In this document: positions 22,489 to 37,079 of the stretch, piece by piece | How positions within the stretch are numbered: position 1 is the stretch's first letter | Layout: each line of letters begins with the position of its first letter | Source: Candidatus Saccharimonadota bacterium | Lineage (GTDB): Bacteria; Patescibacteriota; Saccharimonadia; CAILAD01; BJGX01 | Reading direction: 5' to 3' | Assembly (NCBI GenBank): GCA_014191035.1 | Contig: BJGX01000005.1 | Coordinates: forward strand, 1 to 59,756 | Length of the DNA: 59,756 bases | Notes under the pieces: generated by a model | The model's database searches: none | What the model was told of the DNA's origin: nothing | What the model saw: the letters and a program-made list of their open reading frames with translations, nothing else | Program-made: the position numbers and the translations under genes

Positions 22489-22704
22489 TTAGACGGTTAA
22501 TAGCGCCAATATACATACCACGAAGGCTATTCCAAGTACTACGGTGCCTCCAAAGAGGAACTTTTCAGCTCCACGCTTGGTTCGATAAAAGCTTGCTTCT
22601 CCACCAAATGCAGTACCTAATCCACCACCCTGATTTTGAAGCATCACAAAGATGGTTATTAATATCGAGATTATTACTAATGCTACCTGTAAAAATGTTT
22701 TCAT
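22489..22704 (-). CDS. secG: Preprotein translocase subunit SecG
   Basis: LQNQGGGLGTAFGG...TKRGAEKFL between two TM segments. Confidence 0.93.
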   Translation of the reverse strand: MKTFLQVALVIISILITIFVMLQNQGGGLGTAFGGEASFYRTKRGAEKFLFGGTVVLGIAFVVCILALLTV

Positions 22705-23054
22705 ATTTGCTCCTTATCGATTATAAATCCCATTAGATAATTGGCTAGCCAGACCACAATTACCGCACCAATCGCTGACCATATTGATTCTACCCTAAAA
22801 GGAGAATAAATTGCACTTGTTATATACAATAGAAGGGTGTTAATTATTAAACTAAACAGACCAAAAGTCAATACTATGGCCGGGAGACTAAGTATTACCA
22901 AGAAAGGCCTTAAAAAGGCATTAACTAAACCAAATATCAAGCTAGCTATTAGCAGTACTGTAAAGCTGTCGGCCGCTATTCCTTTTAAGAATATTGTTGC
23001 AGCAGATAAACCTAAAAAATTTGCTAGCCATGTTAATAAAAAGCGTCTTACCAC
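22701..23054 (-). CDS. YvlD-like 4-TM (phage holin family) membrane protein
   Basis: GLVNAFLRPFLVILSLP...LTFGLFSLIIN signature. Confidence 0.88.
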   Translation of the reverse strand: MVRRFLLTWLANFLGLSAATIFLKGIAADSFTVLLIASLIFGLVNAFLRPFLVILSLPAIVLTFGLFSLIINTLLLYITSAIYSPFRVESIWSAIGAVIVVWLANYLMGFIIDKEQI

Positions 23055-23087: not shown

Positions 23088-24521
23088 CTATCTAAGCTGG
23101 TCGGTTAGCAACTTGGCCTTTGCTTTGCCCAAAACTTTCGCAATCTCTACTTCAGTAGCATCCTTCACTCCGGCAACGCTACCAAAAGCTCTTATTAATT
23201 TCTTACGAGAAGCCGGGCCGATACCGCTTATTTCTTCAAGCTGTGATTTTTTAATTCTTTTAGCTCGAACAACAGTGTGGTAACTTACAGCAAATCTATG
23301 AGCCTCATCGCGAATCCTTTGGATCAGATGAAGTATAGGCGAATCAGATTCAAAATTAATCATATAGTATTCACCTTCTCTCCTTAGTGATTGTGGAGAT
23401 GGCAAATCATTGGCATCAACTACAATCGTTTCGTAGCGTTTAGCCAGGCCGACCGTCATTATGTCGATTTCTGACTCTTTCAGGGCCTTTTTGGCGCTAG
23501 ATAACTGCCCCTTTCCACCATCGATAATAATTAAATCTGGCTTTGGCCAAGATTTATTTCGCTCACTAAACCTACGACTTAATGTCTCTTTCATCATTGC
23601 AAAATCATTTGGGCCTTTTGTCCGCATCTTAAAATGTCGATACTCCCTATTGTTTGGTAGTCCATCTGTAAACACCACCATCGAACTAACACTATCGCCC
23701 CCAGCAAAGTTACTGATGTCATAGCACTCGATACGTCTAAGTTTCTTTAAGTTAAGAATTTCGCTTAATCCCCTGAGGGCAATATCTACACCAATTACCA
23801 GCTTTTCTTCACCCCCAAAAACTACTCTGGTATTTAAGGCTTTAAGGGCCAAATATTGATTTCTAAATTCAATTGCTTCTTCATACTTTTGCTTCTTTGA
23901 AAGTTTATCTATATCTTTTTTTAGTTGATCAATCAGCTTAGTGCTTTTCCCCTCCAAAACCATTATCAGTTTTCTAATTTGCTTCTTATATTCAGTTTTG
24001 GAGATATCTGGCCTTGGCAATACTCCTATTTGGTATTCAAGCTTAGAGCTATATTTGTGCTTCTCTTTAACAAAGTAAGGAAATGCTTTTCTTAGATATT
24101 TTAGGGCCTGTCTGACCCCATAGCTATTTATGAATGGCCCAAAATACTTAGCCTTGTCGTCCATTGGCCTTCTTACTAGTCCAACTGTTGGGAAATCATC
24201 TTGCATAGTTATACGAATATAAATAAAGTTTTTATCATCTCTTTCGCGAACATTATAGAGTGGTTTATGCCTTTTAATTAGCTCGGCTTCTAAAAATAAT
24301 GCTTCAACTTCAGAATTAGTCTCAAGCCACTCTAGATCTGCAATGTTTTCCACCAATAATGGTGTTTTGTAGTCACTGTGCTTTTTACTAAAATAAGACT
24401 TAACTCTACGGCGTAGTATCGAGGCCTTACCGATGTATATAATTTTGCCCTTTTTGTCTTTAAACAAATATACACCCGGCGTCTTGGGCAAATTATCTAG
24501 TTTGTTAGCAAGCTTATTCAT
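23088..24521 (-). CDS. uvrC: Excinuclease ABC subunit C
   Basis: GIY-YIG (PGVYLF...YIGKA), IECYDISN, IDGGKGQ, RDEAHRFA, HhH; start set at ATG 24521 just after TATAAT. Confidence 0.96.
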   Translation of the reverse strand: MNKLANKLDNLPKTPGVYLFKDKKGKIIYIGKASILRRRVKSYFSKKHSDYKTPLLVENIADLEWLETNSEVEALFLEAELIKRHKPLYNVRERDDKNFIYIRITMQDDFPTVGLVRRPMDDKAKYFGPFINSYGVRQALKYLRKAFPYFVKEKHKYSSKLEYQIGVLPRPDISKTEYKKQIRKLIMVLEGKSTKLIDQLKKDIDKLSKKQKYEEAIEFRNQYLALKALNTRVVFGGEEKLVIGVDIALRGLSEILNLKKLRRIECYDISNFAGGDSVSSMVVFTDGLPNNREYRHFKMRTKGPNDFAMMKETLSRRFSERNKSWPKPDLIIIDGGKGQLSSAKKALKESEIDIMTVGLAKRYETIVVDANDLPSPQSLRREGEYYMINFESDSPILHLIQRIRDEAHRFAVSYHTVVRAKRIKKSQLEEISGIGPASRKKLIRAFGSVAGVKDATEVEIAKVLGKAKAKLLTDQLR

Positions 24522-24612
24522 AAACTCTATTATACCCCCAACGAGCTTATAGTTTAATTTTGTAGTAATCTGTTCTATGATATCAGCATCGCACCTTACT
24601 ATCGGGGGGAGC

Positions 24613-24876
24613 ATGAAGCTCGAATCAGTATTAAATGGTTATTGCTGTAATGATCAAAAAGCAATTTTGCTGTTAGTACTTATTTATTCGCATACGCTTG
24701 TGCGTCTTGAAGAAGATCCTAAACTAGTCTTTCTTCAAACAAGAAAACAAGAATTCCTAGAGGGCCTAACAATCAGCTCCCTTCAAATTCCAAGCTGCAT
24801 AATTGAATCTATAAATTCAAATCCGCTAGATTGGTTCTGTCAAACTATGGAATACTTAGACAAAAACAATATATAG
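24613..24876 (+). CDS. Small protein family member A (87 aa)
   Basis: GGGGAG SD before ATG 24613; terminator downstream; aligns with the four other family members. Confidence 0.7.
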   Translation: MKLESVLNGYCCNDQKAILLLVLIYSHTLVRLEEDPKLVFLQTRKQEFLEGLTISSLQIPSCIIESINSNPLDWFCQTMEYLDKNNI

Positions 24877-24899
24877 CCCCTGCATACGTGGGGGCTTTT
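24875..24899 (+). terminator. Terminator after member A
   Basis: GC-rich stem AGCCCC...GGGGCT followed by a T tract. Confidence 0.75.
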
Positions 24900-24902
24900 C
24901 AA

Positions 24903-24931
24903 TTGAAAAATAAAAAATATATGTATATAAT
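24903..24931 (+). promoter_or_regulatory. Promoter of members B-C
   Basis: TTGAAA-N17-TATAAT. Confidence 0.7.
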
Positions 24932-24960
24932 CTTACTTCCGTACCTTCAAAGGAGCAAAA

Positions 24961-25248
24961 TTGAGCGATAGCGAAGTAGTAAAGCTATATAAAAGCTTTC
25001 CAGCCAAGCACCGAGATCAGTTCTATCAGCTGCTGCTAATTTATGTGCTCAACCTTAACACATGGCAGTGTAGCGACCGAACCAACAAAGATGCCTTTGG
25101 TCAAATTCAAAGTTCACTTAAGTATCTGAAGCATGAACCATTTAATCTAAGTACTGAAATGCTCGAAAGAATTGTCGATAATCACGAAGACTGGATGGCA
25201 GACTTGATGGAAATGGATAAGTTTAATGGGAAAACCCAGATACAATAA
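24961..25248 (+). CDS. Small protein family member B (95 aa)
   Basis: AAGGAG SD, TTG start; LKHEPFNLS...IVDNHEDW motif. Confidence 0.75.
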   Translation: MSDSEVVKLYKSFPAKHRDQFYQLLLIYVLNLNTWQCSDRTNKDAFGQIQSSLKYLKHEPFNLSTEMLERIVDNHEDWMADLMEMDKFNGKTQIQ

Positions 25249-25537
25249 TCCCAGATCCTTTATCGAGTCGTACGACATTGAACTGCGAGGTAAGTTAGCA
25301 GTTAAGATTTTTCTTTTTTGTGTTACTCAAGGAAACTGGAAGGAACAATCCAATGATGATTATTGGCATATAAGCTCCATATACAACCCAAAGTCCCCTG
25401 CTTACAAGCTAAAGGCCGAGCTTACATCAGAGCCATTCAACCTAAATGATTTTGTAATCATTTCAATTAAAGAAAATACAGTAGAATGGTTGACTGAGTC
25501 ATGTATGATTTGGGATGACTACATTAAAGCCTCATAA
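25226..25537 (+). CDS. Small protein family member C (103 aa)
   Basis: Overlaps member B by 23 nt; LTSEPFNLN...IKENTVEW motif. Confidence 0.75.
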   Translation: MGKPRYNNPRSFIESYDIELRGKLAVKIFLFCVTQGNWKEQSNDDYWHISSIYNPKSPAYKLKAELTSEPFNLNDFVIISIKENTVEWLTESCMIWDDYIKAS

Positions 25538-25553
25538 GAACGAGGCTTTTTTT
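25526..25553 (+). terminator. Terminator after member C
   Basis: AAAGCCTC-N8-GAGGCTTT followed by a T tract. Confidence 0.75.
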
Positions 25554-25623
25554 ATTTTTATGCTTGCATAATGTAGCCTTACTTATATAGTAAAAGTGCA
25601 GGCAAACCTAGAAAGGCTTGACT

Positions 25624-25887
25624 ATGAACCTTCAGGATCTAATTGGGCGATACCCTAGCGAACAAATTGATGAATTAAAAAGACTGATTCGAGAATTTAT
25701 CAATTGCGAGCTGCAAATTTACATCGGAGATACTCACCTGCGCAGCTGGGAAGAAGAAGACTCGCGCTTGCGAGCCCAAAAGATTGCATTGGTACTGCGT
25801 GGGCCTCCTTGGGGGATGAGCATCGAAGATCTTGAATACCTTTGCGACAACGCCCAGGAAATACTTAATGAGCTTAATCGCTCTTAA
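25624..25887 (+). CDS. Small protein family member D (87 aa)
   Basis: TTGCAT-N16-TATAGT promoter, GAAAGG SD 7 nt before the ATG; LRGPPWGMS...LCDNAQEI motif. Confidence 0.75.
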   Translation: MNLQDLIGRYPSEQIDELKRLIREFINCELQIYIGDTHLRSWEEEDSRLRAQKIALVLRGPPWGMSIEDLEYLCDNAQEILNELNRS

Positions 25888-25891
25888 TATA

Positions 25892-25920
25892 AGACCCCGA
25901 ACAATTCGGGGTCTATTTAT
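25892..25920. terminator. Terminator between member D and the convergent surface-protein gene
   Basis: AGACCCCGAA-CAA-TTCGGGGTCT. Confidence 0.75.
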
Positions 25921-25931
25921 TTTCTGAAATT

Positions 25932-27596
25932 ATTATCTTCTCTTTACCGCATAACCAGTTGCAAGTATGCCGCCTAGTACTAGTAGTCCTGCTATAAGCG
26001 CTGGGGTTTTGGCATCCCAGCCGGTTCCGGCCAGTGTTCCACCGCTACCACCACTGTCTGGGGTTGGGTAAACGTACTCGTAAGATCCACTGTCTGCCAA
26101 GGCTGCCTGTGGGCGTGTAACACCACGCTGATCAATGCTTGGGGTTGCAGGGCTACCTGCTACAGCATTTTCAAGTGCAGGTGAGCCTGCCTGAAGTGGC
26201 AAAACAAATGTGTTTCCAACCTGCTGGTAAGCACCTAGTAGTGGGTCGGTAGAGTTTTTATCATTGGTGGCGATAAATAGAGTATTACAAGTATCATCGT
26301 TAGATATATTTCCACCATCACTTGTCAGGGTTGCGTTTTCACCAATACTTGTGACACAGTTACCTGGAGTTGTTCCGTCTGTTCGTTTATTACTACTAAA
26401 TATATTGTTTCTTAGATTAAGCGATGCGGAGAAATAAGCCGGGTCAGAACCTAAGTTGACTATGAATGGTTCATCAACAAATTCAGCATAATATTTATTG
26501 TTTACGACTGTATTATTGTAGAAATTTGCTGTTGACTGACCCTCGGCATCTACCGAATTTTGTATAGCCAATATCGAAGAATTATTGTTATAAATTGTGT
26601 TATTAAAAACATTCATTGTAGCGTTTCCAGAGGGCCCTTCATTAACTGTCCTTATGTTACCAATCAAAAAGAAGGCTGTATTTTCAGTAAAAACACTATT
26701 GGAGATAGTCGTATTTATTCCTGCTGCAGAAAAAGTCACTGCAATAGCACATACTGGCGTAACACCAACACATGTGTTGTTTTTAATTATTAGTTTATTG
26801 AGTGTAACATTACCAGCAGCATTATTTATTAATGCAGCCCCTGGATCAGTTGGGCTAAAGTTCTGGAATGTGAGGTTCTCTATTAGATAGTTGCCGGTTG
26901 TTGCCACAACTACACCAGAAAAGCCTGCACCATCAATAATTGTTGTGGTGGCGTTTTCTCCAACTACAGAAATATTACCAGGATTAACTATATATCCCAA
27001 ACTAGCTGACAAAGTATATGTGCCGGCGCCAACATTAACGGTATCGTCACCATCTCCTGCTGCACAACTACCCACGGGGGTATCAGTAGCCGCTGCCTCA
27101 AGTGCTTCTTGAAAACTACAAGCACTAGAAGGAGTTACATTGTATGTTGTGGCTTCTGCTTTGGGGGCAAATGCTAATTGAGAAAGTAGCCCTACGACCA
27201 ATATACTAATAATAACTGTTGCGCGGGATAGTAACTTATACTTCATAAGGTTCATTTCAAACATTATCTTCTCTTTACCGCATAACCAGTTGCAAGTATG
27301 CCGCCTAGTACTAGTAGTCCTGCTATAAGCGCTGGGGTTTTGGCATCCCAGCCGGTTCCGGCCAGTGTTCCACCGCTACCACCACTGTCTGGGGTTGGGT
27401 AAACGTACTCGTAAGATCCACTGTCTGCCAAGGCTGCCTGTGGGCGTGTAACACCACGCTGATCAATGCTTGGGGTTGCAGGGCTACCTGCTACAGCATT
27501 TTCAAGTGCAGGTGAGCCTGCCTGAAGTGGCAAAACAAATGTGTTTCCAACCTGCTGGTAAGCACCTAGTAGTGGGTCGGTAGAGTTTTTATCATT
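25932..27596. repeat. 334-bp identical direct repeat (25932-26265 and 27263-27596)
   Basis: The 3' ends of the two paralogs read identically at a constant offset of 1331 bp. Confidence 0.92.
25933..27264 (-). CDS. Secreted beta-helix surface protein (choice-of-anchor Q-like) with LAGTG-TM-KRR tail
   Basis: Signal peptide ...AEA, Asn-rich NNT repeats, DQRGVTRPQ...DSGSYE, C-terminal sorting-like signal. Confidence 0.82.
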   Translation of the reverse strand: MFEMNLMKYKLLSRATVIISILVVGLLSQLAFAPKAEATTYNVTPSSACSFQEALEAAATDTPVGSCAAGDGDDTVNVGAGTYTLSASLGYIVNPGNISVVGENATTTIIDGAGFSGVVVATTGNYLIENLTFQNFSPTDPGAALINNAAGNVTLNKLIIKNNTCVGVTPVCAIAVTFSAAGINTTISNSVFTENTAFFLIGNIRTVNEGPSGNATMNVFNNTIYNNNSSILAIQNSVDAEGQSTANFYNNTVVNNKYYAEFVDEPFIVNLGSDPAYFSASLNLRNNIFSSNKRTDGTTPGNCVTSIGENATLTSDGGNISNDDTCNTLFIATNDKNSTDPLLGAYQQVGNTFVLPLQAGSPALENAVAGSPATPSIDQRGVTRPQAALADSGSYEYVYPTPDSGGSGGTLAGTGWDAKTPALIAGLLVLGGILATGYAVKRR

Positions 27597-28589
27597 AGTC
27601 GAGGTAAAAATAGAATTACAGCTCGTATCGTTGGAAATATTGCCACCATCACTGGTTAATGAGCCATTTTCACCTACCAGACTACCACAATTATAAGGTG
27701 CGTCTGCAAGGCTTACATTGTTGTAGAAAATATTATTTCTCATGTTAAGAAAAGCACCAAAATATGTGTCTGGGCCAACGTTAACGCTAAACATTAAATC
27801 TACAAATTCAGCGTAAGGCTTGTTTTGTACAATTGTATTGTTGTAGAAATTTAAAACAGATTGGCCCGGTGAAGCATCTGTATTTGAAGCACCCGCTATT
27901 CCAGCGTCGTTATCGTAAAAAGTATTATTAAAAACGTTCATTGTAGGACTGCTTGCAGTGCCTTCTATGGCTGGCACTCTGGCGTTTGCAATCAGGAAGA
28001 ACGCAGTATTGTTGTAAAATACACTATTTGAAATCGTGGTATTCACCTCAGCTGGACCAAGCGTTAAGGCAATAGCGCAGACAGGTACTGTACTAGTACA
28101 AGTATTATTTTTGATAATTAGCTTATTGGCTGTAACATTACCAGCAGCATTTAATATTAGAGTATTACCATCTCCATCTGAGACGAAGTTTTGAAAAGTT
28201 AGATTTTCAATTAGATAGTTACCTGTGGCACCAACGATAATACCTGCAAAGCCAGCACCATCTATTATGGTATTGGTGGCATTTTCGCCAATTATTGAAA
28301 TGTTTCCAGCTGTTACCAAGGGGCCTAGATCTGCTGATATAGTGTATGTTCCTGCTCCAACGTTTATAGTGTCGTCTGCATCGCCAGCGTCACAACCACC
28401 TACAGGAGCATCAGTTGCGGCTGCGGTTAAGGCGTCTAAAAAACTACATGCACTAGAAGGAGTTACATTGTATGTTGTGGCTTCTGCTTTGGGGGCAAAC
28501 GCTAATTGTGCCACAAAAGCTAAAATTAAAATTACCATCGCATAAACCATGGTACTTAATTTACTTATAAAACTGTTTTTTGTTTCCAT
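27264..28589 (-). CDS. Secreted beta-helix surface protein, tandem paralog
   Basis: Same architecture; TAATG stop/start overlap with the downstream paralog. Confidence 0.82.
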   Translation of the reverse strand: METKNSFISKLSTMVYAMVILILAFVAQLAFAPKAEATTYNVTPSSACSFLDALTAAATDAPVGGCDAGDADDTINVGAGTYTISADLGPLVTAGNISIIGENATNTIIDGAGFAGIIVGATGNYLIENLTFQNFVSDGDGNTLILNAAGNVTANKLIIKNNTCTSTVPVCAIALTLGPAEVNTTISNSVFYNNTAFFLIANARVPAIEGTASSPTMNVFNNTFYDNDAGIAGASNTDASPGQSVLNFYNNTIVQNKPYAEFVDLMFSVNVGPDTYFGAFLNMRNNIFYNNVSLADAPYNCGSLVGENGSLTSDGGNISNDTSCNSIFTSTNDKNSTDPLLGAYQQVGNTFVLPLQAGSPALENAVAGSPATPSIDQRGVTRPQAALADSGSYEYVYPTPDSGGSGGTLAGTGWDAKTPALIAGLLVLGGILATGYAVKRR

Positions 28590-28725
28590 TAAAATTACCG
28601 CTCCTTTGTATATTGAATATCATAAGTGTTTTAGGTTAACAGCGCAAGTACTTTGGGGGGGGCTGATGTTTCATATTTTAATTTTTTAGGTTATAGTTTT
28701 TAGTTGATTCGTACCTAGGAGCCAA

Positions 28726-28992
28726 ATGCTACTCGAGCCGGTGTGTAATAATGTACAGCCTTCTTTCAGGTCTGCTTTAAAAAATGAAATTCTTAGATTC
28801 GCCAATGCCCACCTTAGAATGCAAAAGCCCTATTCAAAGCTAGAGCCTGAAGACTTTGAAAAACTCAAAGAAAGCGCAGCTTTCTCGGCAGCTAGGCTCA
28901 AAAACCAACCATTTTATATTTCCACAGATCTAATATCCCAGATTGCTGCTAACCCAGAACCCTGGATAGACGAAATATATGATGCCTTGTAG
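28726..28992 (+). CDS. Small protein family member E (88 aa)
   Basis: AGGAG SD; LKNQPFYIS...IAANPEPW motif; terminator at 28990-29013. Confidence 0.75.
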   Translation: MLLEPVCNNVQPSFRSALKNEILRFANAHLRMQKPYSKLEPEDFEKLKESAAFSAARLKNQPFYISTDLISQIAANPEPWIDEIYDAL

Positions 28993-29054
28993 CCCTAAAA
29001 TTATTTAGGGCTATTTTATTTGGCTTATGCTTACTGCTCAGCTAAGATTATATT

Positions 29055-29921
29055 ATGTGGATTGTATACTCAGTTCTATGTGCCCTTAGCGATAGTTTAG
29101 CCAGTCTTTTTAACAAGCAGTTGGTTTCAAAAAAACAAGACGCTTTTTCTATATCTGTTTTTATTCATGGCTTTGGAGCTATTACTATGTTGGTTGTAGG
29201 TATTGTTACATCGGAAAAGCTTTTAGTTTTACCATTAAATGCCTTCTTACTACTTATAGCTACCGCAGCCTCTGCCGCCGCAGCTGGCGTAATACTGCTT
29301 TTGGCACTCAAAAAGGGCGATTTGTCTCTGATTGCTCCTATTCAGACAATTACGCCGTTGTTGATACTTATAATTGCGATATTCTTTTTGAATGAAGCTC
29401 CCAAGCCAATTGGACTTGCTGGAATAATGCTGGTTGTAATAGGCGGAATATTATTAGACAAAAGCCCTAAAGAAAGTTTTAGATCAATCATGATTAGAAT
29501 TGTAACTTATAAGCCTGCGCTACTTGGTGTGGCTGCGGCGGCACTCTATGCGCTTGCTTCTGTCTTTGATAAGGGTGGGCTAAAGCTAGTTAGTGTAGGC
29601 GTTTGGATATTTTATGTTTACTTTTTTGTATTTTTATTTGTACTACCTGTGGTTTTAATTAAAAAACGTAAGGAATTTGTGAAACTAAAAAAGCACAAGA
29701 GGCTACTACTTAGCTCTTCGGTGTTCAGTGTAGCTGCAATTTACTTGCAACTTCTGGCATTAAAGACTGCATTAGTAACCTATGTTCTTTCAATTAAAAG
29801 ATTAAGCTCCGTATTTGCAGTAATTTTGGCTTATTTGGTCCTAAACGAAAAGAAAGCGCTCTTTAGGTTAAAGGGCGCAATACTAATGGTGGTGGGTGCA
29901 ATACTTATCGGTATAAGTTAG
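29055..29921 (+). CDS. EamA/DMT family transporter
   Basis: Two 5-TM repeats: SLIAPI...FLNE and LSIKRLS...VLNEK. Confidence 0.9.
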   Translation: MWIVYSVLCALSDSLASLFNKQLVSKKQDAFSISVFIHGFGAITMLVVGIVTSEKLLVLPLNAFLLLIATAASAAAAGVILLLALKKGDLSLIAPIQTITPLLILIIAIFFLNEAPKPIGLAGIMLVVIGGILLDKSPKESFRSIMIRIVTYKPALLGVAAAALYALASVFDKGGLKLVSVGVWIFYVYFFVFLFVLPVVLIKKRKEFVKLKKHKRLLLSSSVFSVAAIYLQLLALKTALVTYVLSIKRLSSVFAVILAYLVLNEKKALFRLKGAILMVVGAILIGIS

Positions 29922-31366
29922 TCTTTGCGCTTTTTGGCTTGCGCTACAACTAAGCTCATGCGTGGATTGCTTTTAAATCTTTCTATGTTATTTTTGATAA
30001 ATTTCCAGTAAAGCTTGGTAAATTCACTGTTTTGCGCATCCCTGAGGCTAGGCCACCAACCACCCATTTTTTGTAAATAATTACCCCCAGAAACATAAGG
30101 TTTAGTGGCAGTAAAGCCTCCGTCGGCATATTGGCTCATACCATAAACATTTGGAACCATTACCCATTCGTAGGCATCGACATACATACTACTAAACCAC
30201 TCATACACTTCGTGGGGATTGTAACTGTTTAATAAAAACCAATTGCCCAAGACCATTAAGCGCTCAATGTGATGATTATATCCGTATTTGAATGTCGTCT
30301 TGAGCACAGCAGATACTGGCAGTTCCAAATCCTCGGGCAACTCACCACCATACCACCAAGGCTCTAATTTCTTTTTATAGCCAAAATAGTTTTTTAGAAG
30401 ATTATCTGATTTATACATATACAAGCCATACATATATTCTCGCCAACCTATTATTTGGCGTATGAACCCTTCGTATGAATTAATGGGAACTTTGCCTTTC
30501 AAATAAACCTTTTCTGCTTCAGCCAGAACTTCGGTAGGAGTAATTAAGCCAATATTTAGTAGTGGCGATATAACTGAATGAAATAAAAACGCCTCACCAT
30601 TACGCATCGCGTCCTCATAGGCTCCAAAATTTTCGAATCGGTCTTTAATAAAATACCCAAGCCAACGTTTTGCTTCGGGTTGCGTTGTAGGCAACCAAAA
30701 GTCTTTGCTACTACCTGGATTATTGGCAAATAATTTATCGATTGTTTTTGCTGAATCTGCAAAATCTCTAGGAGAAACACTGGGTAAGCTTGGAATTTTA
30801 GCAGTCTTTGGTAGTGGCTTTCGGTTTGAATCGTCATAGCTCCATTTACCCCCAACTGGCTGTCCATTCTTCATTAAAACATTCATGCGCTTTCTTTGCC
30901 ATTTATAAAAGCTATCCATTATTGGGTTATTTTTTTCTTCAAACCAGTTTTCGAGATCCTTTTGAGGGGTTAGGAATTGTTCGTTGGCAAGTATTTCGTA
31001 ATCCAGCTTGAGTTTATTAGCAGTTTTTGTAAGCCCAGCATTCGGCCCTTTATCGGATGAGCTCATCCAAACAAGCTTGTTAAATCTGCGAGATTTAATA
31101 ATCGACTCTAGCTCACTATTGAAATTGCTGCCCCTTTTTAGCTCGACATAAATTAGATTTCTTTTTTCATTTTTTAGATACTTTTTGTAATTGCGCATCG
31201 AAGCCATTATCAAAATAAGTTTGTGCTTGTGATAATTATGTTTTTTAAACAAATTATCAGCTTCAATCATAATTATGTTTGAGCTTGGGTATTTTTTTAG
31301 TGCTGGGTGTTCCGCTAAAAGCTGGTTGCCTAAAATTACAATCGCTGTTTTATCTAGCTCAGCCAT
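29918..31366 (-). CDS. Bacterial (6-4) photolyase/cryptochrome (PhrB/CryB-like), cysteine-free
   Basis: LGNQL, HKHKLILIMASMR, GGKWSYDDSNRK, EGFIRQIIGWRE, HHIERLMV, DAYEWVMVPNV, TKPYVSGGNY. Confidence 0.9.
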   Translation of the reverse strand: MAELDKTAIVILGNQLLAEHPALKKYPSSNIIMIEADNLFKKHNYHKHKLILIMASMRNYKKYLKNEKRNLIYVELKRGSNFNSELESIIKSRRFNKLVWMSSSDKGPNAGLTKTANKLKLDYEILANEQFLTPQKDLENWFEEKNNPIMDSFYKWQRKRMNVLMKNGQPVGGKWSYDDSNRKPLPKTAKIPSLPSVSPRDFADSAKTIDKLFANNPGSSKDFWLPTTQPEAKRWLGYFIKDRFENFGAYEDAMRNGEAFLFHSVISPLLNIGLITPTEVLAEAEKVYLKGKVPINSYEGFIRQIIGWREYMYGLYMYKSDNLLKNYFGYKKKLEPWWYGGELPEDLELPVSAVLKTTFKYGYNHHIERLMVLGNWFLLNSYNPHEVYEWFSSMYVDAYEWVMVPNVYGMSQYADGGFTATKPYVSGGNYLQKMGGWWPSLRDAQNSEFTKLYWKFIKNNIERFKSNPRMSLVVAQAKKRKD

Positions 31367-32739
31367 TTTTTGGCGTATGCCTCCACATCGAATTTATTTT
31401 TGAGTCCGTTATAGTTCATATATCGAATTTTTCCAAATATTGGCTGTTCAAACCAGGGCCTGTCGTGCAATCCACCAATTGACCATAGAACCCCTACGTA
31501 ACCATTCGGGTCTCCACCGTCGATAGAATAATGATCGTTTAAATAATTAGCGTGTTTTATAGCTATTTTAGGACTTGGGCTCCATTCCAAAATCTTCTTT
31601 GCCCAATACATTCGCATGTAACCGTGCATTTTGCCAGTCTTTGAAAGCTGAGCCTGGGCAGCATTCCAGGCATCATCGTGAGTTTTATAACTTTCTAAAT
31701 CTTTTAAACTATACTCGTACTCACGATTGTCATGTATGTGTTCTTCCAGGGACTTTTTAGCCCAGTCTTTGATACCATCATAATTTTTATAATTAGCATT
31801 GTTGTTGCAATAATTATCTGCAAGCTCTTTTCGAACAATTAATTCCTCCAAAAAGGCGTCGATACTATCACCTATTGTTGGTGTGCCTTCATAGCGAGCT
31901 AGCCTGACTTCTTTTATAAGTAATGGTATATGATTTTTTGTAAGTTCTAACGCTACCCTTAATGATGATATCTGCCCGAAGTGCAAATAAGGACTTAAGT
32001 TGCTTTGCCCATCAACATTCGGATTATTTCTGTCTGCGGCATAATCAGGCAGTCGATTTTTAATAAAATCATTTAGCTCATTTTGGGCATGCTTTTCACC
32101 TGATTCGAATTCAATTTTGCTGCCATTGGATTTTTGTTTGTTTACAATCTGCTCGAATTTTTTCCAATCTGCTTTGCTGGTTGATTTCTTAGATTGCTTA
32201 ATAATTTTTAGAGGCTCAACTAACCATTCCTCCAGAAGCTTATGCACCTTGCCCCTAAATGTATGGGCTGCAAACTCTTCCTTATCTGAAGCTACCCAAG
32301 TCGGTATTATGTTGTGTGTGTCAACTACTTCAACTTTATATTCAGCATTTTTTGCTATGTAGTTTTTCTGATCCTTTGGACCATTTAAAGGGCTAAAATC
32401 AAAAACGACCGCAGCTGGATTTAATTTATTTATTTCTTTTAGTAATGATTCTTTATTGTCTTCGAAAAATAATATGAATCCAATATTTAATTTTTCAAGC
32501 TCTAGCTGAACTTCTTTTAGACCATCGTACATAAACTGATAATGTTCTTTGGACCTATCACCAGTTCTGGATAAGACATTGAAAACAACAACTAGTGGCA
32601 GTTTTGCTTCTCTTGATATTTCCAGAGCACGAACTAAGGCATGGTTATCATGAACCCTTTGATCGCGACTCATAACGTAAATTACATGCTCGCCATCTGA
32701 TAAACCTTTGTCATTTAAAGCGCTGGCTCTTTTTTCCAT
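31354..32739 (-). CDS. Class II CPD DNA photolyase
   Basis: SRDQRVHDNHAL, GKMHGYMRMYWAKKILEW, DGGDPNGY, HDRPW...FGKIRYMN. Confidence 0.94.
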   Translation of the reverse strand: MEKRASALNDKGLSDGEHVIYVMSRDQRVHDNHALVRALEISREAKLPLVVVFNVLSRTGDRSKEHYQFMYDGLKEVQLELEKLNIGFILFFEDNKESLLKEINKLNPAAVVFDFSPLNGPKDQKNYIAKNAEYKVEVVDTHNIIPTWVASDKEEFAAHTFRGKVHKLLEEWLVEPLKIIKQSKKSTSKADWKKFEQIVNKQKSNGSKIEFESGEKHAQNELNDFIKNRLPDYAADRNNPNVDGQSNLSPYLHFGQISSLRVALELTKNHIPLLIKEVRLARYEGTPTIGDSIDAFLEELIVRKELADNYCNNNANYKNYDGIKDWAKKSLEEHIHDNREYEYSLKDLESYKTHDDAWNAAQAQLSKTGKMHGYMRMYWAKKILEWSPSPKIAIKHANYLNDHYSIDGGDPNGYVGVLWSIGGLHDRPWFEQPIFGKIRYMNYNGLKNKFDVEAYAKKWLS

Positions 32740-32758
32740 AAATCAATTATACATAATG

Positions 32759-34114
32759 CTAGGATTTTTGGTGGGTTTTTTTGTTTTGCCTATTCTGATG
32801 AAAGCTTTTGAATGCAAATATAGAGCCTGATGCCACAAGAAATGCCGAGGCAATCAAAATCCAACGGAGATCTCTGCCGGTACCTACTAAATAGCCGGCT
32901 GGTGGGTATGGAGTTCCCCCGCTGGGTACTCCCGGTCCGTTATATTCGTAGGAACCACTATCGTACGCTCCACCCTGAGGCCTTGTAACTCCTCTTTGGT
33001 CTGTAGAAGGTGAGCCAGAAGATATCGCAGACCCTATGGCGGCTGAGTTTGCTGCAAGCGGTCTGACATATGTTCCGTTATCTAAGGTTAGAACATTAAG
33101 AAGTGGGTCTATATTACTTTTATCGCTACCTATAAAATAAGGCAAGCAAGAAGAATCGCTAGACAGATTACCACCCTGTGAGGCAATTGTATCTCCAGGC
33201 TTTAATGTTACTGGGCAGGTGCCACCGCCTATGTCTACATTATTTGCATAAAAAATGTTATTTTTTAAATTAAGAGTCACAGGATAAGTTGTTATAGTTT
33301 CATCATTTACATTCATGACCAATATTCCGTCAAAGCCTATTCCGGAATTGTTGGCAATTGTATTGTTAATAAGGTTGGCCACTACCGTTGAGCCTGAAGA
33401 AACATTGGTAACATCAATTGCTGCCGAATTATTGTTACTAATTGTATTATTTATCATATTTAATGTGACGTCACCGCTATTTCCCGAAGGAAGAGTGCCA
33501 ACAGCGACTAGAAAGGCGCCAAAATTATAGTAAAAAGAGCTATTGGTTAAATTGAATACCGTATCACCATTACCTGTGTTGCCAAACAAAAGACATATGG
33601 GTATGCTTGGATTTGAGCACTGATTATTGCGCACTATTATGTTATTGACATTCATATTGCCTTTATAAGAAGCAAGGGCTGTTCTGTAATCAGATGGCCC
33701 ACTAACAATTGACACAAAGTTCCTGAAGGTCAAATTGCTGATTGAGTAGTTATTGTTATCCGAAGGTGGGTCAATTCTTAATCCAGCATTAGAGGCGTTA
33801 CCATCTAATATTGTGGTTGTGGGGTTTTCGCCAACTATCGAAAGATCACCATCATAATTTATGTCTGGTAAGCTACCAATAATAAAGTACTCTCCGGCGC
33901 CAACGTTTATTGTGTTAGATGTCCCACCCGCTGGGCAGCTACCGTATCCTGCTGGGTTTCCTGCAGCAATTATTGCGTCGTTTAATGAACATGCGCTAGT
34001 CGGGGTCACGTTATAAACTGTAGCCTGTGCTGGCGAAGAAAACACAAACAAAAATGCGAACGCAAAAATTGCGCCAAGAGATAGTTTGATTGTATTAAAA
34101 ATTTTGTTTGGCAA
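32759..34114 (-). CDS. Secreted beta-helix surface protein, third paralog (LVGTG-TM-basic tail)
   Basis: AQA-TVYNVTPTSACS N-terminus and DQRGVTRPQGGAYDSGSYEY resemble the other two paralogs. Confidence 0.82.
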   Translation of the reverse strand: MPNKIFNTIKLSLGAIFAFAFLFVFSSPAQATVYNVTPTSACSLNDAIIAAGNPAGYGSCPAGGTSNTINVGAGEYFIIGSLPDINYDGDLSIVGENPTTTILDGNASNAGLRIDPPSDNNNYSISNLTFRNFVSIVSGPSDYRTALASYKGNMNVNNIIVRNNQCSNPSIPICLLFGNTGNGDTVFNLTNSSFYYNFGAFLVAVGTLPSGNSGDVTLNMINNTISNNNSAAIDVTNVSSGSTVVANLINNTIANNSGIGFDGILVMNVNDETITTYPVTLNLKNNIFYANNVDIGGGTCPVTLKPGDTIASQGGNLSSDSSCLPYFIGSDKSNIDPLLNVLTLDNGTYVRPLAANSAAIGSAISSGSPSTDQRGVTRPQGGAYDSGSYEYNGPGVPSGGTPYPPAGYLVGTGRDLRWILIASAFLVASGSIFAFKSFHQNRQNKKTHQKS

Positions 34115-34176
34115 TCTAAACTCACCTTATTTATTTGTACTCTAATCATAAGGTTTTTACAGATTTAGTGCAATTA

Positions 34177-36990
34177 TTATTTAAGAAGTTTCTTAAGATA
34201 TTTGCCAGTATGAGAATCTTTTATTTGAGCGATTTGTTCAGGAGTGCCAGAGCCCAAAATGGTTCCGCCCTTGCTTCCACCTTCGGGGCCTAGATCGATT
34301 ATCCAGTCTGCACTCTTTATAACATCCAAATTATGTTCAATAATAAGTACTGAGTTTCCCATTGCGACCAGTGCATCTAAAACTTCTAAGAGCTTTTTAA
34401 CATCTTCAAAATGAAGGCCAGTTGTGGGCTCATCTAGAATATATAACGTTCTACCGGTTGCACGCCTGCTAAGTTCTGATGCAAGCTTAATTCGCTGGGC
34501 TTCACCACCCGAAAGAGTTGTGGCGGGCTGACCGAGCTTAATGTAGCCAAGTCCAACACTCTTTAAAGTTTCAAGTTTTCGACTGATGCTCGGTATATTT
34601 CCAAAAAAGTCACAAGCTTCTTCAACGGTCATTTCAAGAACGTCAGAAATATTTTTGCCTTTATAGACAATTTCTAAAGCCTCACGATTGTAACGCTTAC
34701 CTTTACATACGTCACAGGTCACGTAAACATCTGGTAAGAAATGCATTTCGATTTTTATAATTCCATCGCCCTTACAGTTTTCGCAACGCCCACCTTTTAC
34801 ATTAAAGCTAAATCGTCCAGCACTATAGCCTCTGATTTTTGCTTCGGACGTCATCGCAAACAGTTCACGAATATCATTAAATGCTCCGGTATAAGTTGCT
34901 GGGTTACTACGTGGGGTTCGGCCAATTGGGCTTTGATCGATATCGATAACTTTATCTAAATTTTCAGTTCCTTCAATTGCCCTGCATTTACCGGCTGGTT
35001 CTTGACTACGGTGATATTCTTGGCTTAGGCGTCGCGCTAAAATGTCATTAATTAATGAGCTTTTGCCAGAGCCAGAAACGCCCGTAACCACTGTCATTAT
35101 TCCCAGAGGAATCTCGGCAGTTACGTCTTTTAGGTTGTGCTCGGTTGCACCAATTATTTTAAGCGACTTACCATTTGACTTACGTCGCTCTTTTGGAACT
35201 TCAATTTTTTTACTGCCACTTAGGTACTGGCCTGTTAAAGATTCTTTTACTTTGGCAACTTCGGTTGGGGTACCTGCAGCCACAACTTTACCGCCATGTT
35301 CACCTGCAGCCGGGCCAATATCTATTACGTAGTCTGCCATACGAATTGTGTCTTCGTCGTGCTCCACAACAATAACTGTGTTGCCTAGTGCCTTTAGTCG
35401 CATAAGAGTAGAAATTAATCTGTCATTATCACGCTGGTGCAAACCAATCGAAGGTTCATCGAGGATATACAAAACACCCATCAAGCTTGACCCAATTTGG
35501 GTAGCTAAACGGATTCGCTGGGCCTCACCACCTGCTAAAGTATTCGCACTTCGGTCAAGACTTAAGTAGCTTAAACCAACATCATTTAAAAATGTTAGGC
35601 GAGCTAGAATTTCTTTTGTGATTTGGTTAGCAATTTTTTGTTGTTGTTCGCCAAGCTTCAGTCCATTGTAGTAAGAGAGGGCATCTTCGACTGTCATTTC
35701 GGAGATATCAGCGATTGATTTATTATCGATAGTAACTGCAAGCACCTCGGGTTTTAAGCGTTTACCATTACATGTCCCGCAGATTTGGCTCGTCATGTAT
35801 TTTTCGATTTCTTTCTTAACAAAATCGCTGTCTGTTTCTCGGTAGCGACGTTCTAGGTTCGGAATAATACCTTCAAATTTGGTTTTATATGTTCTGCCTC
35901 CAGGGCCTGGCACGCCAATCTCTTCATCACCAGTACCATACAAAATTGTGTAAAGCTGATCGTCTGTAAGCTGATCTACCGGTTTTTCGATACTAAATTT
36001 GTGAGCTTTGGCCACTGCCTGAACTAACTTGGTGTACCAATTAAGTCGCTGGGTGGTTCTGCTCCATGGCCGAATTGCACCCTCAAGTATGCTTAAGTTT
36101 CTGTTTGGAATTATAAGCTCTGCATCGATTACCAAAAGCGATCCTAGACCCATACAGCTTGGGCAGGCACCGTGCGGAGAGTTAAAACTGAATAGTCTTG
36201 GTTCAATCTCCGGAAGAGCAAAATCCGAATCTGCCGTGGTGTAATGCTCTGAATATAATTTTTCTTCATTAGTGTCATAATTGAGCACACTTATAACGCC
36301 CTCGCCCAAATGCAAAGCCGCCTCAACTGATTCAACCAAGCGCTGAGGATTATCTTTGTCGATAGTTAATCTATCTGTGACTACCTCAATAGTATGCTTC
36401 TTTTGCTTATTAAGTTTAGGAACTTCATCAATTGGAATGATATTTCCATCAAGACGCACACGACTATAGCCGGCCTTTTGAATTTCTGAAAGCAAATGAA
36501 CGTGTTCACCTTTTTTGTCTTTTACAATTGGCGCTAAAAGCACAACCTTGGTATTTTTAGGATATTCAAAAATTAAATCTACGATTTGCTGAGGAGTCTG
36601 TTTGGTTAAAACTTCACCTGTTTTTGGATTATGCGGGACCCCTACACGAGCAAATAAAAGTCTCATATAATCATAAATTTCTGTAACTGTCGCAACTGTA
36701 CTGCGTGGGTTTCGGCTAGATGATTTTTGATCAATTGAAATAGCCGGGCTTAAGCCCTCTATCTGGTCGACGTCTGGCTTTTCCATTAGCCCTAAAAATT
36801 GGCGCGCATAAGCACTCAGGCTCTCAACATATCGACGCTGACCTTCGGCGTAGATAGTATCAAAAGCCAAAGATGATTTACCACTTCCAGAGAGTCCAGT
36901 AATGACCACCAACTTGTCGCGCGGTATTTCGACATCGATGTTTTTGAGGTTATGTTCTCTAGCACCCTTAACAATTATTTTATCGTGCAT
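34177..36990 (-). CDS. uvrA: Excinuclease ABC subunit A
   Basis: GAREHNLKN, two Walker A motifs [10 protein letters not shown], LSGGEAQR, zinc fingers. Confidence 0.99.
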
Positions 36991-37037
36991 AAGTTCTCCT
37001 CGATTTGCTTTATTATTGGACGCAAAATCAGCTATAA

Positions 37038-37066
37038 ATTGTACGCCTTAAGTCAAGATTATTCAA
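37038..37066 (-). promoter_or_regulatory. Putative uvrA promoter
   Basis: TTGAAT-N17-TACAAT on the minus strand; GAGGAG SD before the ATG. Confidence 0.5.
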
Positions 37067-37079
37067 GAGTATTTATGTA

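What the first reader, a model, noticed from the sequence alone, without database searches (positions are those of the whole stretch)
24613..28992. Undescribed five-member family of hypervariable ~90-aa proteins in stand-alone cassettes
Seen: ORFs A 24613, B 24961, C 25226, D 25624 and E 28726 (all plus strand) have low pairwise identity but align without gaps in two blocks. N-block: LESVLNGYCCNDQKAILLLVLIY / VVKLYKSFPAKHRDQFYQLLLIY / PRSFIESYDIELRGKLAVKIFLF / LQDLIGRYPSEQIDELKRLIREF / LEPVCNNVQPSFRSALKNEILRF. C-block: LTISSLQIPSCIIESINSNPLDWF / LKHEPFNLSTEMLERIVDNHEDWM / LTSEPFNLNDFVIISIKENTVEWL / LRGPPWGMSIEDLEYLCDNAQEIL / LKNQPFYISTDLISQIAANPEPWI. The consensus is L-x3-P-[FW]-x-h-x4-h-x2-h-x2-N-x3-W with an invariant Asn, and the linker between blocks varies in length. 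Four transcription units each have their own promoter, ACCT-SD leader and terminator, and they flank the duplicated surface-protein genes. I recognise no domain. Inference: a conserved helical scaffold with a diversified surface, as expected for an immunity/antitoxin array, anti-defence inhibitors or host-directed effectors.
Basis: partly seen in the sequence, partly recalled or inferred. Interest (0 to 1): 0.82.

Follow-up and report, generated by a model that had tools for sequence, protein, structure and literature searches.

The report
New small helical proteins beside uvrC
Five neighbouring genes in a tiny freshwater Saccharimonadia genome encode related, fast-evolving ~90-residue helical proteins of a family with no known relatives, whose founding copy sits between the DNA-repair genes uvrC and uvrA; what they do is still unknown.

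Summary
The five ORFs are real and homologous. B is the hub in shuffle tests (z 4.5-8.9). Clade profiles match end to end (hhalign E 1.5e-5 to 3.8e-9). AlphaFold2 gives the same five-helix order for E (pLDDT 90.8) and A (93.5).

No Pfam, NCBIfam, PHROGs, PADLOC, PDB-sequence or fold match stands above noise.

"Hypervariable" is not supported. Each paralogue has its own orthologues and dN/dS is 0.02-0.21.

The new result is position. The family is confined to one Saccharimonadia family plus one genome of a neighbouring family: 20 of 31 and 1 of 14 genomes. Nothing credible was found among the other genomes of the 401 searched in the class. In 21 of 21 other genomes with a member, the gene lies next to uvrC and/or uvrA. 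Most of those genomes have a single copy; this genus has up to five.

No toxin, defence or secretion partner was found. My best guess, at low confidence, is a cytoplasmic protein-binding module tied to the UV-repair cluster. The immunity, antitoxin and effector readings are weakly supported.

The parts
24613..24876 (+). Paralogue A (87 aa). It is divergent from uvrC. The start at 24613 is preferred over ATG 24577 because GGGGGGAG lies 3 nt upstream and the same-genus orthologue starts at the equivalent Met.
24961..25248 (+). Paralogue B (95 aa, TTG start after AAAGGAG). It is the hub of the pairwise similarities.
25226..25537 (+). Paralogue C (103 aa). It overlaps the end of B by 23 nt, so B and C form one transcription unit. 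The overlap is kept in both same-genus genomes.
25624..25887 (+). Paralogue D (87 aa). It is the copy most like the single-copy genes of other genera (R-G-P-P-W motif).
28726..28992 (+). Paralogue E (88 aa). It is divergent from the second surface-protein gene and upstream of the EamA transporter gene.
24875..24896 (+). Terminator-like hairpin after A
25526..25549 (+). Terminator-like hairpin after C (end of the B-C unit)
25892..25914 (+). Terminator-like hairpin after D
28989..29014 (+). Terminator-like hairpin after E
24590..24596 (+). Leader motif CGCACCT between the -10-like hexamer and the Shine-Dalgarno sequence of A
24940..24946 (+). Leader motif CGTACCT of B, downstream of the promoter-like site 24903-24931 (11/12)
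28710..28716 (+). Leader motif CGTACCT of E, downstream of the promoter-like site 28670-28697 (9/12)
23088..24518 (-). uvrC (GIY-YIG, UvrC RNase H and HHH domains). The likely start is ATG 24518, with GGTATAAT ending 7 nt upstream. It is the conserved divergent neighbour of the family.
25933..27264 (-). Surface-protein gene 1 (443 aa, N-terminal hydrophobic segment, Asn/Thr-rich repeats, C-terminal LAGTG + hydrophobic segment + KRR). No Pfam family.
27264..28589 (-). Surface-protein gene 2 (441 aa). It is a tandem paralogue; its last 300 nt are 100% identical to those of gene 1.
34177..36990 (-). uvrA (context). In other genera it lies directly beside the family's single copy.

Best explanation
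Shown: A-E are five expressed-looking, protein-coding paralogues of a taxonomically restricted family. The proteins are small (85-105 aa), mostly acidic and soluble, and form five-helix bundles. The family's founding copy occupies the slot between uvrC (divergent) and uvrA (convergent) in one family of Candidatus Saccharimonadia. In this genus the slot has grown to hold up to five copies (five in two of its three genomes), two sortase-type surface-protein genes, an EamA transporter gene and two photolyase-type genes.

Inferred: the conserved residues (the Leu ending helix 3, the P-[FWY]-x-[ILM]-[ST] loop, the Asn-Pro-x-x-Trp cap of helix 5) hold the scaffold together. The divergent helix surfaces bind partners. 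So these are cytoplasmic protein-binding modules, not enzymes or DNA binders.

My committed guess is that the ancestral copy works with or regulates the UV-damage repair machinery encoded around it (UvrC/UvrA, photolyases), and that the extra paralogues have diverged to other partners. The existence and nature of the family are near certain. The link to repair rests on gene position only.
For: Coding and selection:
- dN/dS against the same-genus genome G001 is A 0.14, B 0.02, C 0.21, D 0.07, E 0.07, with uvrC at 0.026. Against G002 it is B 0.08 and C 0.17.
- In a strain contig of run X3, 9 of the 14 listed differences inside D fall at third codon positions.

Family and fold:
- Homology rests.
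- AlphaFold2 gives E pLDDT 90.8 and pTM 0.82, with helices 3-8, 12-33, 44-59, 67-75 and 78-87.
- AlphaFold2 gives A pLDDT 93.5 and pTM 0.84, with helices 3-7, 12-34, 39-53, 61-69 and 71-84.
- pI is 4.2-5.8 in 26 of 32 members.
- No 19-residue window exceeds Kyte-Doolittle 1.24, so I see no membrane segment or signal peptide.

Position:
- Of 21 other genomes with a credible member, 10 have it beside uvrC, 5 between uvrC and uvrA, and 6 beside uvrA.
- One of these is G030, from a different family (f2). Its marginal hit (E 9.2e-4) is again divergent from uvrC.
- As a group, the uvr-adjacent proteins of genera g5, g8 and g17 match the B/D/E profile at hhalign prob 95%, E 3.8e-8.

Context in the window: uvrC, a DPRP-family gene, a photolyase gene, uvrA and uvrB lie within 16 kb.
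Against: Position can be plain inheritance. Twenty of the 21 genomes belong to one family, so they are not independent. If the ancestral order was uvrC-small-uvrA, any single rearrangement leaves the gene beside one of the two.

The gene is dispensable. It was not found in 11 of 31 genomes of the family. In most genomes of genus g2, uvrA appears to abut uvrC directly (I read this from the antisense shadow frames of uvrA).

No UVR-domain or other repair-family match appears in any of the 32 members. No shared operator was seen in the uvrC-small intergenic regions beyond promoter elements. I have no expression data.

Large surface-protein genes recur beside the gene in five genera. That points to a different association.
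Confidence: 0.3

Rival explanations
1. This is a lineage-specific 'orphan' family whose place beside uvrC/uvrA is historical accident. It arose in the uvrC-uvrA spacer of an ancestor, uses the back-to-back promoter region, and has a cellular role unrelated to DNA repair that nothing in the data reveals.
For: The family is confined to f1 (20/31 genomes) plus one f2 genome (1/14). There is no credible member among the other genomes of the 401 searched in the class. Only 15 genuine representatives exist among 1.84 billion proteins. The gene was lost repeatedly within the family. The proteins evolve fast: A 42%, C 66% and B 74% amino-acid identity against G002, while the first 150 residues of UvrC are 91% identical.
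Against: Purifying selection and retention over several genera show that it does something. The gene stays with uvrC or uvrA through several different rearrangements, although this is also what neutral decay of an ancestral order predicts.
Confidence: 0.3
2. The proteins are cytoplasmic escorts or adaptors for the large surface proteins encoded next to them. On this reading the paralogue number grew together with the surface-protein genes.
For: In this window D and E bracket two tandem sortase-type surface-protein genes. In G008 the single copy is convergent with a homologous surface-protein gene (43.8% identity over the best tblastn segment). In G009, G016 and G021 the small gene lies directly downstream of, and on the same strand as, a very large ORF. 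That ORF is 2290 aa in G009, with a 58-nt gap. In G016 its C-terminal part carries Peptidase_S74 at E 2e-11. In G030 a large ORF is convergent with the small gene.
Against: No surface-protein gene is adjacent in g3 (7 genomes), in G015, G041 and G006 (g5), in G019 (g2) or in G011 (g10). In those genomes the gene has only uvrC, uvrA or EamA as neighbours. The uvrC-uvrA gap may simply be a favoured insertion site.
Confidence: 0.12
3. One reading: an array of immunity or antitoxin proteins, or of anti-defence inhibitors. Each paralogue would neutralise a different toxin or defence protein.
For: The proteins are small, helical and cytoplasmic, and they form a paralogous array with a conserved scaffold and divergent surfaces. 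Two small helical type VI immunity proteins appear in the structural list, but only in the noise: Tsi2 (3rq9_A) at Z 5.0 and Rap2a (3zib_A) at Z 5.0. One of 32 members touches EntA_Immun at E 0.12.
Against: No toxin or defence gene was recognised among the neighbours I tested here or in relatives. PADLOC matches 0 of 32 members. B and C, the only two-gene unit, are both family members. dN/dS is 0.02-0.21, with no sign of an arms race. The gene is usually a single copy in a housekeeping slot in the other genera.
Confidence: 0.1
4. The proteins are effectors exported to the host bacterium (Saccharimonadia are thought to live attached to other bacteria; from my own knowledge) by a route that needs no classical signal peptide.
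For: They evolve fast, are lineage-specific, and sit beside surface-protein genes.
Against: There is no signal peptide or hydrophobic segment and no secretion-system gene adjacent. The gene is usually a single copy inside a repair cluster in the other genera. Purifying selection is in the range of ordinary cytoplasmic proteins.
Confidence: 0.05

Closest known systems
Small helical immunity proteins of polymorphic-toxin / type VI systems (e.g. Tsi2, PDB 3rq9; Rap2a, PDB 3zib) and their orphan arrays
   Same: Size of about 80-100 aa, all-helical and cytoplasmic, occurring as diverged paralogues side by side. Both appear in the VIA-align list for the E model.
   Different: Both score Z 5.0 only, inside the range the tool calls common for helical bundles. 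No toxin gene is adjacent. There is no PADLOC or Pfam immunity family. The gene is usually a single copy between uvrC and uvrA in the other genera.
Small acidic modulators of DNA-repair proteins, such as DinI or DNA-mimic proteins like Ugi (named from my own knowledge; not searched with)
   Same: A small acidic protein encoded within a DNA-damage repair neighbourhood. It is expected to act by binding a protein rather than DNA.
   Different: There is no sequence or fold match to any of them in the searches run. SOS control is not shown. The five-helix bundle differs from the mixed alpha/beta folds I recall for DinI and Ugi.
Class IIa bacteriocin immunity proteins (Pfam EntA_Immun, PF08951)
   Same: Helical-bundle cytoplasmic proteins of about 90-110 aa that often occur as several diverged copies in Gram-positive genomes (from my own knowledge).
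   Different: Only 1 of 32 members touches the model, at E 0.12 and far below its cut-off. There is no bacteriocin gene nearby. No solved immunity protein of that class appears in the top 50 of either structural list.
Uncharacterised lineage-specific small proteins (DUF-type families) of Patescibacteria/CPR genomes
   Same: No annotation ('hypothetical protein' where a source names it), narrow taxonomic range, fast evolution.
   Different: This family has a confident fold model, a defined motif, a fixed genomic address beside uvrC/uvrA, and a local expansion to five copies.

Membership tests
Polymorphic-toxin / orphan immunity array | A toxin gene, or the toxin domain at the C-terminus of a large protein, directly upstream of the immunity gene | tested here: not met
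   Pfam on the neighbours in the window and on the large ORFs upstream of the small gene in relatives found no toxin domain. It found Peptidase_S74 and a weak H_lectin in one of them and nothing in the other three.
Polymorphic-toxin / orphan immunity array | Sequence or fold match to a described immunity family | tested here: inconclusive
   No Pfam, NCBIfam or PADLOC family. Tsi2 and Rap2a appear at Z 5.0 only, within helical-bundle noise.
Type II toxin-antitoxin pair | A two-gene operon of an antitoxin and an unrelated toxin | tested here: not met
   The only two-gene unit is B-C, and both genes belong to the same family. A, D and E stand alone between a promoter region and a terminator.
Anti-phage defence or anti-defence proteins | Match to PADLOC defence models or to phage protein families | tested here: not met
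   PADLOC matches 0 of 32 members. In PHROGs no family is matched by more than 2 of 32; one member hits an unnamed phrog at E 4.5e-4. BFVD has 0 matches at E <= 0.001.
Class IIa bacteriocin immunity (EntA_Immun, PF08951) | Match to the Pfam model above its cut-off | tested here: not met
   1 of 32 members at E 0.12.
UVR-domain proteins (UvrB/UvrC interaction motif, PF02151) | Match to the UVR helical-hairpin model | tested here: not met
   No member lists PF02151 at E <= 1. UvrC and UvrB of the window do match it.
Secreted effector | An N-terminal signal peptide or another recognisable export signal | tested here: inconclusive
   No hydrophobic segment: the maximum Kyte-Doolittle value over 19 residues is 1.24. 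No dedicated signal-peptide predictor was available, and export without a signal cannot be tested here.
Nucleotide-excision-repair accessory factor (no described family) | Physical or regulatory link to UvrA/B/C | not testable with these tools
   Only gene position is available: 21 of 21 genomes. Expression data were not found.

The most novel reading that the evidence does not exclude
The family is a previously unseen accessory or regulator of the UV-damage response, specific to one branch of Saccharimonadia. The ancestral copy would bind UvrC, UvrA or the transcription machinery at their shared promoter region. In this genus it has radiated into five partner-specific variants.
Probability: 0.15. 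Interest if true: 0.6.

Novelty: new member of a known kind. Interest (0 to 1): 0.3.

Why it matters
Patescibacteria genomes are small and full of unnamed genes. A family with a confident fold, a clear motif and a fixed address beside uvrC/uvrA is a tractable entry point into that unknown fraction.

If the repair link holds, it would add a lineage-specific component to nucleotide excision repair, one of the best-studied bacterial pathways. If it does not, the locus still shows how a single orphan gene expands into a small array in a reduced genome. It also shows that the uvrC-uvrA gap is a recurrent insertion site for surface-protein genes.

As it stands, this is a well-documented new family of unknown function and not a new system.

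Tried and rejected

**Complex prediction.** UvrC (476 aa, 22-row alignment) with D (30-row alignment) scored 0.00 in both runs. The verdict was 'no answer', and it is evidence neither way. UvrA plus D would exceed the 1000-residue limit and was not sent. No B-C or homo-oligomer job could be run because the cap is one job.

**Expression.** No RNA holder is listed for 24400-29100. The two runs labelled RNA-Seq are probably DNA and hold only scattered 150-310-nt contigs.

**ESM Atlas.** No usable hit for E or D.

**Locus scans.** I used UvrC as bait instead.

**Descent from the DPRP gene.** The weak Pfam DPRP hit of E (E 0.16) suggested descent from the neighbouring DPRP gene. hhalign against that protein gave prob 0.2%, so I rejected this.

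**Long hits.** The two long hits of the representative search (851 aa and 1816 aa) are repeat proteins (Ig/cadherin-like and similar). I rejected them as relatives.

**Leader hairpin.** I tested whether the leader motif pairs with the Shine-Dalgarno sequence. The predicted hairpins are no more stable than shuffles (z -1.3 to +1.3 in the 14 of 16 leaders where a relaxed form of the motif could be located). This is not supported.

**LexA box.** The pattern GAAC-N4-GTTC (recalled Gram-positive consensus) gives 5 matches with one mismatch against 15.4 expected, and none lies at the small genes. I could not define this organism's own LexA box by eye from the lexA, uvrA and uvrB upstream regions.

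**Marginal class-level hits.** The hits in G077, G215, G084, G307, G027 and G045:C37 have no uvr, EamA, surface-protein or photolyase gene within their loci, and most lie inside longer frames. I treated them as spurious. G009 and G022 matched in the order search but not in the class search, so the first-look step is not fully reproducible.

**Literature.** A search for 'Saccharibacteria' + 'uvrC' returned 2 listings (one Gracilibacteria paper and its preprint; listing only, not relevant). A search for 'Saccharibacteria' + 'photolyase' + 'nucleotide excision repair' returned 0. I opened no paper.

Full report
**1. What is there**

The five frames exist as described, all on the + strand:
- A 24613-24876 (the frame also opens at ATG 24577)
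- B 24961-25248 (TTG start)
- C 25226-25537
- D 25624-25887
- E 28726-28992

B and C overlap by 23 nt.

Terminator-like hairpins lie directly after A, C, D and E (8 found in 24300-29300 against 4.0 ± 2.2 in shuffles, and four of them sit at these gene ends). That gives four transcription units.

Promoter-like hexamers are called before B (11/12), E (9/12) and A (9/12), and none before D. The region has no excess of such sites (13 against 13.7).

Between D and E lie two tandem genes on the minus strand for 443- and 441-aa proteins. Each has an N-terminal hydrophobic segment, Asn/Thr-rich repeats and a C-terminal LAGTG + hydrophobic + KRR tail. Their last 300 nt are 100% identical and the rest is 70-80% identical. 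No Rfam family lies in the region.

**2. Are the five related?**

Yes, with B as the hub. In Smith-Waterman scores against 500 shuffles:

| Pair | z |
|---|---|
| B-E | 8.9 |
| B-D | 5.9 |
| B-C | 4.9 |
| A-B | 4.45 |
| C-E | 4.2 |
| D-E | 3.5 |
| A-C | 2.75 |
| A-E | 1.8 |
| A-D, C-D | at chance |

With orthologues added, profile-profile comparison joins the clades end to end:
- C clade against B/D/E: prob 96%, E 3.8e-9
- A clade against B/D/E: prob 79.5%, E 1.5e-5 over 84 columns
- A against C: prob 72%, E 3.3e-5

AlphaFold2 with family alignments gives confident models with the same helix order:
- E: pLDDT 90.8, pTM 0.82, helices 3-8, 12-33, 44-59, 67-75, 78-87
- A: pLDDT 93.5, pTM 0.84, helices 3-7, 12-34, 39-53, 61-69, 71-84

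The two alignments overlap, so the two models are not independent. The two structural search lists share 11 entries, which fits one fold.

**3. Is it a known family?**

Not in any library I could search:
- Pfam on the five: nothing near a cut-off.
- Pfam on 32 members: no family matched by more than 3 of 32, best E 0.016.
- NCBIfam: single members only, best E 0.015.
- PHROGs: at most 2 of 32; one member reaches E 4.5e-4 to an unnamed phrog.
- PADLOC: 0 of 32.
- PDB sequences with the family profile: best E 0.019, mostly designed proteins.
- Foldseek against PDB: 0 matches at E <= 0.001.
- Foldseek against BFVD: 0 matches at E <= 0.001.
- VIA-align against 48,161 chains: best Z 7.1 for E and 6.8 for A, with none at Z >= 8. 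The tool itself rates this as common for helical bundles.
- ESM Atlas: no usable hit.
- Where a source names a homologue, the name is 'hypothetical protein'.
- Two literature searches found nothing relevant (listings only).

**4. Not hypervariable**

An exhaustive HMMER search of 1.84 billion representatives found 17 proteins at E <= 1e-3. Fifteen are 86-103 aa. The other two are long repeat proteins that I reject.

In a tree of 32 members, each of A, B, C, D and E falls in its own clade with orthologues from other genomes. A and C are sisters (support 87/84), and the E clade lies among the D-like sequences.

| Gene | dN/dS vs G001 | dN/dS vs G002 |
|---|---|---|
| A | 0.14 | n.d. (dS saturated) |
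| B | 0.02 | 0.08 |
| C | 0.21 | 0.17 |
| D | 0.07 (52 codons) | - |
| E | 0.07 | - |
| uvrC | 0.026 | - |

The proteins change quickly: A 42%, C 66% and B 74% amino-acid identity to G002, where the first 150 residues of UvrC are 91% identical. That change is under purifying selection. They are old, diverged paralogues, not a diversifying array.

**5. Who has it, and where**

The genome holds 684,728 bases in 18 contigs and is 93.6% complete. A contig with a 99%-identical uvrC is titled Candidatus Saccharimonadia.

The first five-sequence profile found the family in 8 of 41 related genomes. I then looked at the gene divergent from uvrC in 29 genomes of the family. This turned up small ORFs of the same size and pattern in further genera:
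- Four of them score 13-29 bits against the family model when tested singly.
- Two from one genome score about 5-6 bits.
- Two others do not match.

As a group, the proteins of genera g5, g8 and g17 match the B/D/E profile at prob 95%, E 3.8e-8.

With the extended profile, members are found in 20 of 31 other genomes of the family, 1 of 14 of family f2, and otherwise only one doubtful hit in the order. Across 401 genomes of the class, the only hits outside f1 and f2 are marginal and lie next to no uvr gene.

In the 21 other genomes with a credible member:
- 10 have it directly beside uvrC: g1, g3, g7 and the f2 genome G030.
- 5 have it between uvrC and uvrA: G019, G015, G041, G006, G011.
- 6 have it beside uvrA: G016, G009, G022, G021, G005, G045.

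Most genera hold one copy. The three genomes of this genus hold 5, 5 and 3-4.

In the window, the slot between uvrC and uvrA has grown to about 9.7 kb. It holds, in order, A, B-C, D, the two surface-protein genes, E, EamA, a DPRP-family gene, a photolyase and an unnamed 451-aa ORF. uvrA and uvrB follow.

**6. What it most likely does**

Shown:
- The genes are protein-coding and under constraint.
- The proteins are soluble, with no hydrophobic segment.
- They are mostly acidic, with pI 4.2-5.8 in 26 of 32.
- They are all-helical and lack a catalytic-looking motif.

Inferred: the conserved positions are the Leu ending helix 3, the P-[FWY]-x-[ILM]-[ST] loop and the Asn-Pro-x-x-Trp start of helix 5. 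These look like caps and core of the scaffold. The helix faces are free to vary, which is what a binding module looks like. The acidity argues against DNA binding.

The only functional pointer is address. The gene sits inside a UV-repair neighbourhood and is divergent from uvrC across several genera.

I therefore commit, at about 0.3, to a protein-binding accessory or regulator of the UV-damage response. The extra paralogues would have diverged to other partners.

The main rival, at equal weight, is that the address is inherited and says nothing. The genomes are close kin. An ancestral order uvrC-small-uvrA would decay exactly as observed. The gene was also lost in 11 of 31 genomes of the family.

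A second pointer is the recurrent presence of very large surface-protein genes next to the small gene in g1, g7, g8, one g5 genome and g17. It supports an escort or adaptor role at about 0.12, but many genomes lack such a neighbour.

**7. The leader**

CGYACCT, or a close variant, lies 8-12 nt after the -10-like hexamer and before the Shine-Dalgarno sequence. It occurs in A, B and E, in the single-copy genes of g3, g5 and g2, and in the f2 genome.

It is not private to the family. In this genome the motif occurs 7 times in the context '-10-like hexamer, motif, SD, start', against a mean of 0.73 (maximum 5) for 150 permuted motifs. Six further genes carry it, in this or a slightly looser context. 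They encode 88-194-aa proteins, and 0 of the 6 have a Pfam family.

Pairing of the motif with the SD is not more stable than in shuffles. I do not know what the motif does.

**8. Limits**
- No expression data were found.
- The one complex job gave no verdict.
- The lineage name rests on one record title.
- Family and genus labels are the tool's anonymous codes.
- No paper was opened, and supplements were not consulted.

Noticed in passing
window 24590-24596, 24940-24946, 28710-28716; also G000 C2:403, C2:20517, C2:54049, C2:73597, C3:15194, C3:39018: The promoter-proximal motif CGYACC[TC] lies 5-12 nt after a -10-like hexamer and before the SD. It occurs 7 times in this context against a mean of 0.73 (max 5) for 150 permuted motifs. 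Six other genes carrying it, in this or a slightly looser context, encode small proteins with no Pfam family. This may be a shared transcript-start element or a regulon of unknown small proteins.
   Followed up: partly
window 24519-24540 (minus strand); loci L095-L115 upstream of uvrC: uvrC appears leaderless or nearly so. GGTATAAT (read on the uvrC strand) ends 6-10 nt before the uvrC ATG in g1, g3, g7, g5 and g2 genomes, and there is no Shine-Dalgarno sequence.
   Followed up: partly
window 25932-26231 and 27263-27562: The two tandem surface-protein genes share a 100% identical 300-nt 3' end (the sorting-signal region), while the rest is 70-80% identical. This suggests gene conversion. A contig of run X4 joins 25931 to 27263, which is a one-copy form or an assembly collapse.
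   Followed up: partly
window 25601-25977: D and its flanks are more diverged between strains than A-C and E. dS is 0.72 against G001, compared with 0.14-0.36 for the other paralogues and 0.27 for uvrC (only 52 codons for D). In run X3 the contig over D has 18 differences, while the contigs over the A-side intergenic region, B and C have 0-1. An older allele or recombination at this spot is possible.
   Followed up: partly
window 23088-39065: DNA-repair neighbourhood: uvrC, a DPRP-family gene (29918-31366), a photolyase (31354-32739), uvrA (34177-36990) and uvrB (37080-39065) lie within 16 kb.
   Followed up: yes
window 32759-34114 (-): A 451-aa ORF between the photolyase and uvrA has no Pfam family at E <= 1e-5.
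   Followed up: no
L160 4070-10942 (-) (G009); L137 3-1409 (+) (G016): A 2290-aa ORF with no Pfam match lies 58 nt upstream of, and on the same strand as, the small gene in G009. The C-terminal part of the counterpart in G016 carries Peptidase_S74 (E 2e-11) and a weak H_lectin hit. This looks like a fibre-like surface protein.
   Followed up: partly
G000 C1:34794-34982 (-): A LexA-type repressor gene is present (LexA_DNA_bind, 64.8 bits, 211-aa frame). Its operator in this lineage is not defined.
   Followed up: partly
window 22701-23054 (-): A 117-aa membrane protein of the Phage_holin_4_2 family (E 3.7e-26) lies just downstream of uvrC, next to secG-like and SBP_bac_5 genes.
   Followed up: no
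G002 C9:4-132 (-): A fourth, truncated family hit (E 9.6e-6, profile positions 3-45) lies at the very edge of the contig that carries that genome's A, B and C orthologues. G002 may therefore have more copies than the three that are complete.
   Followed up: no
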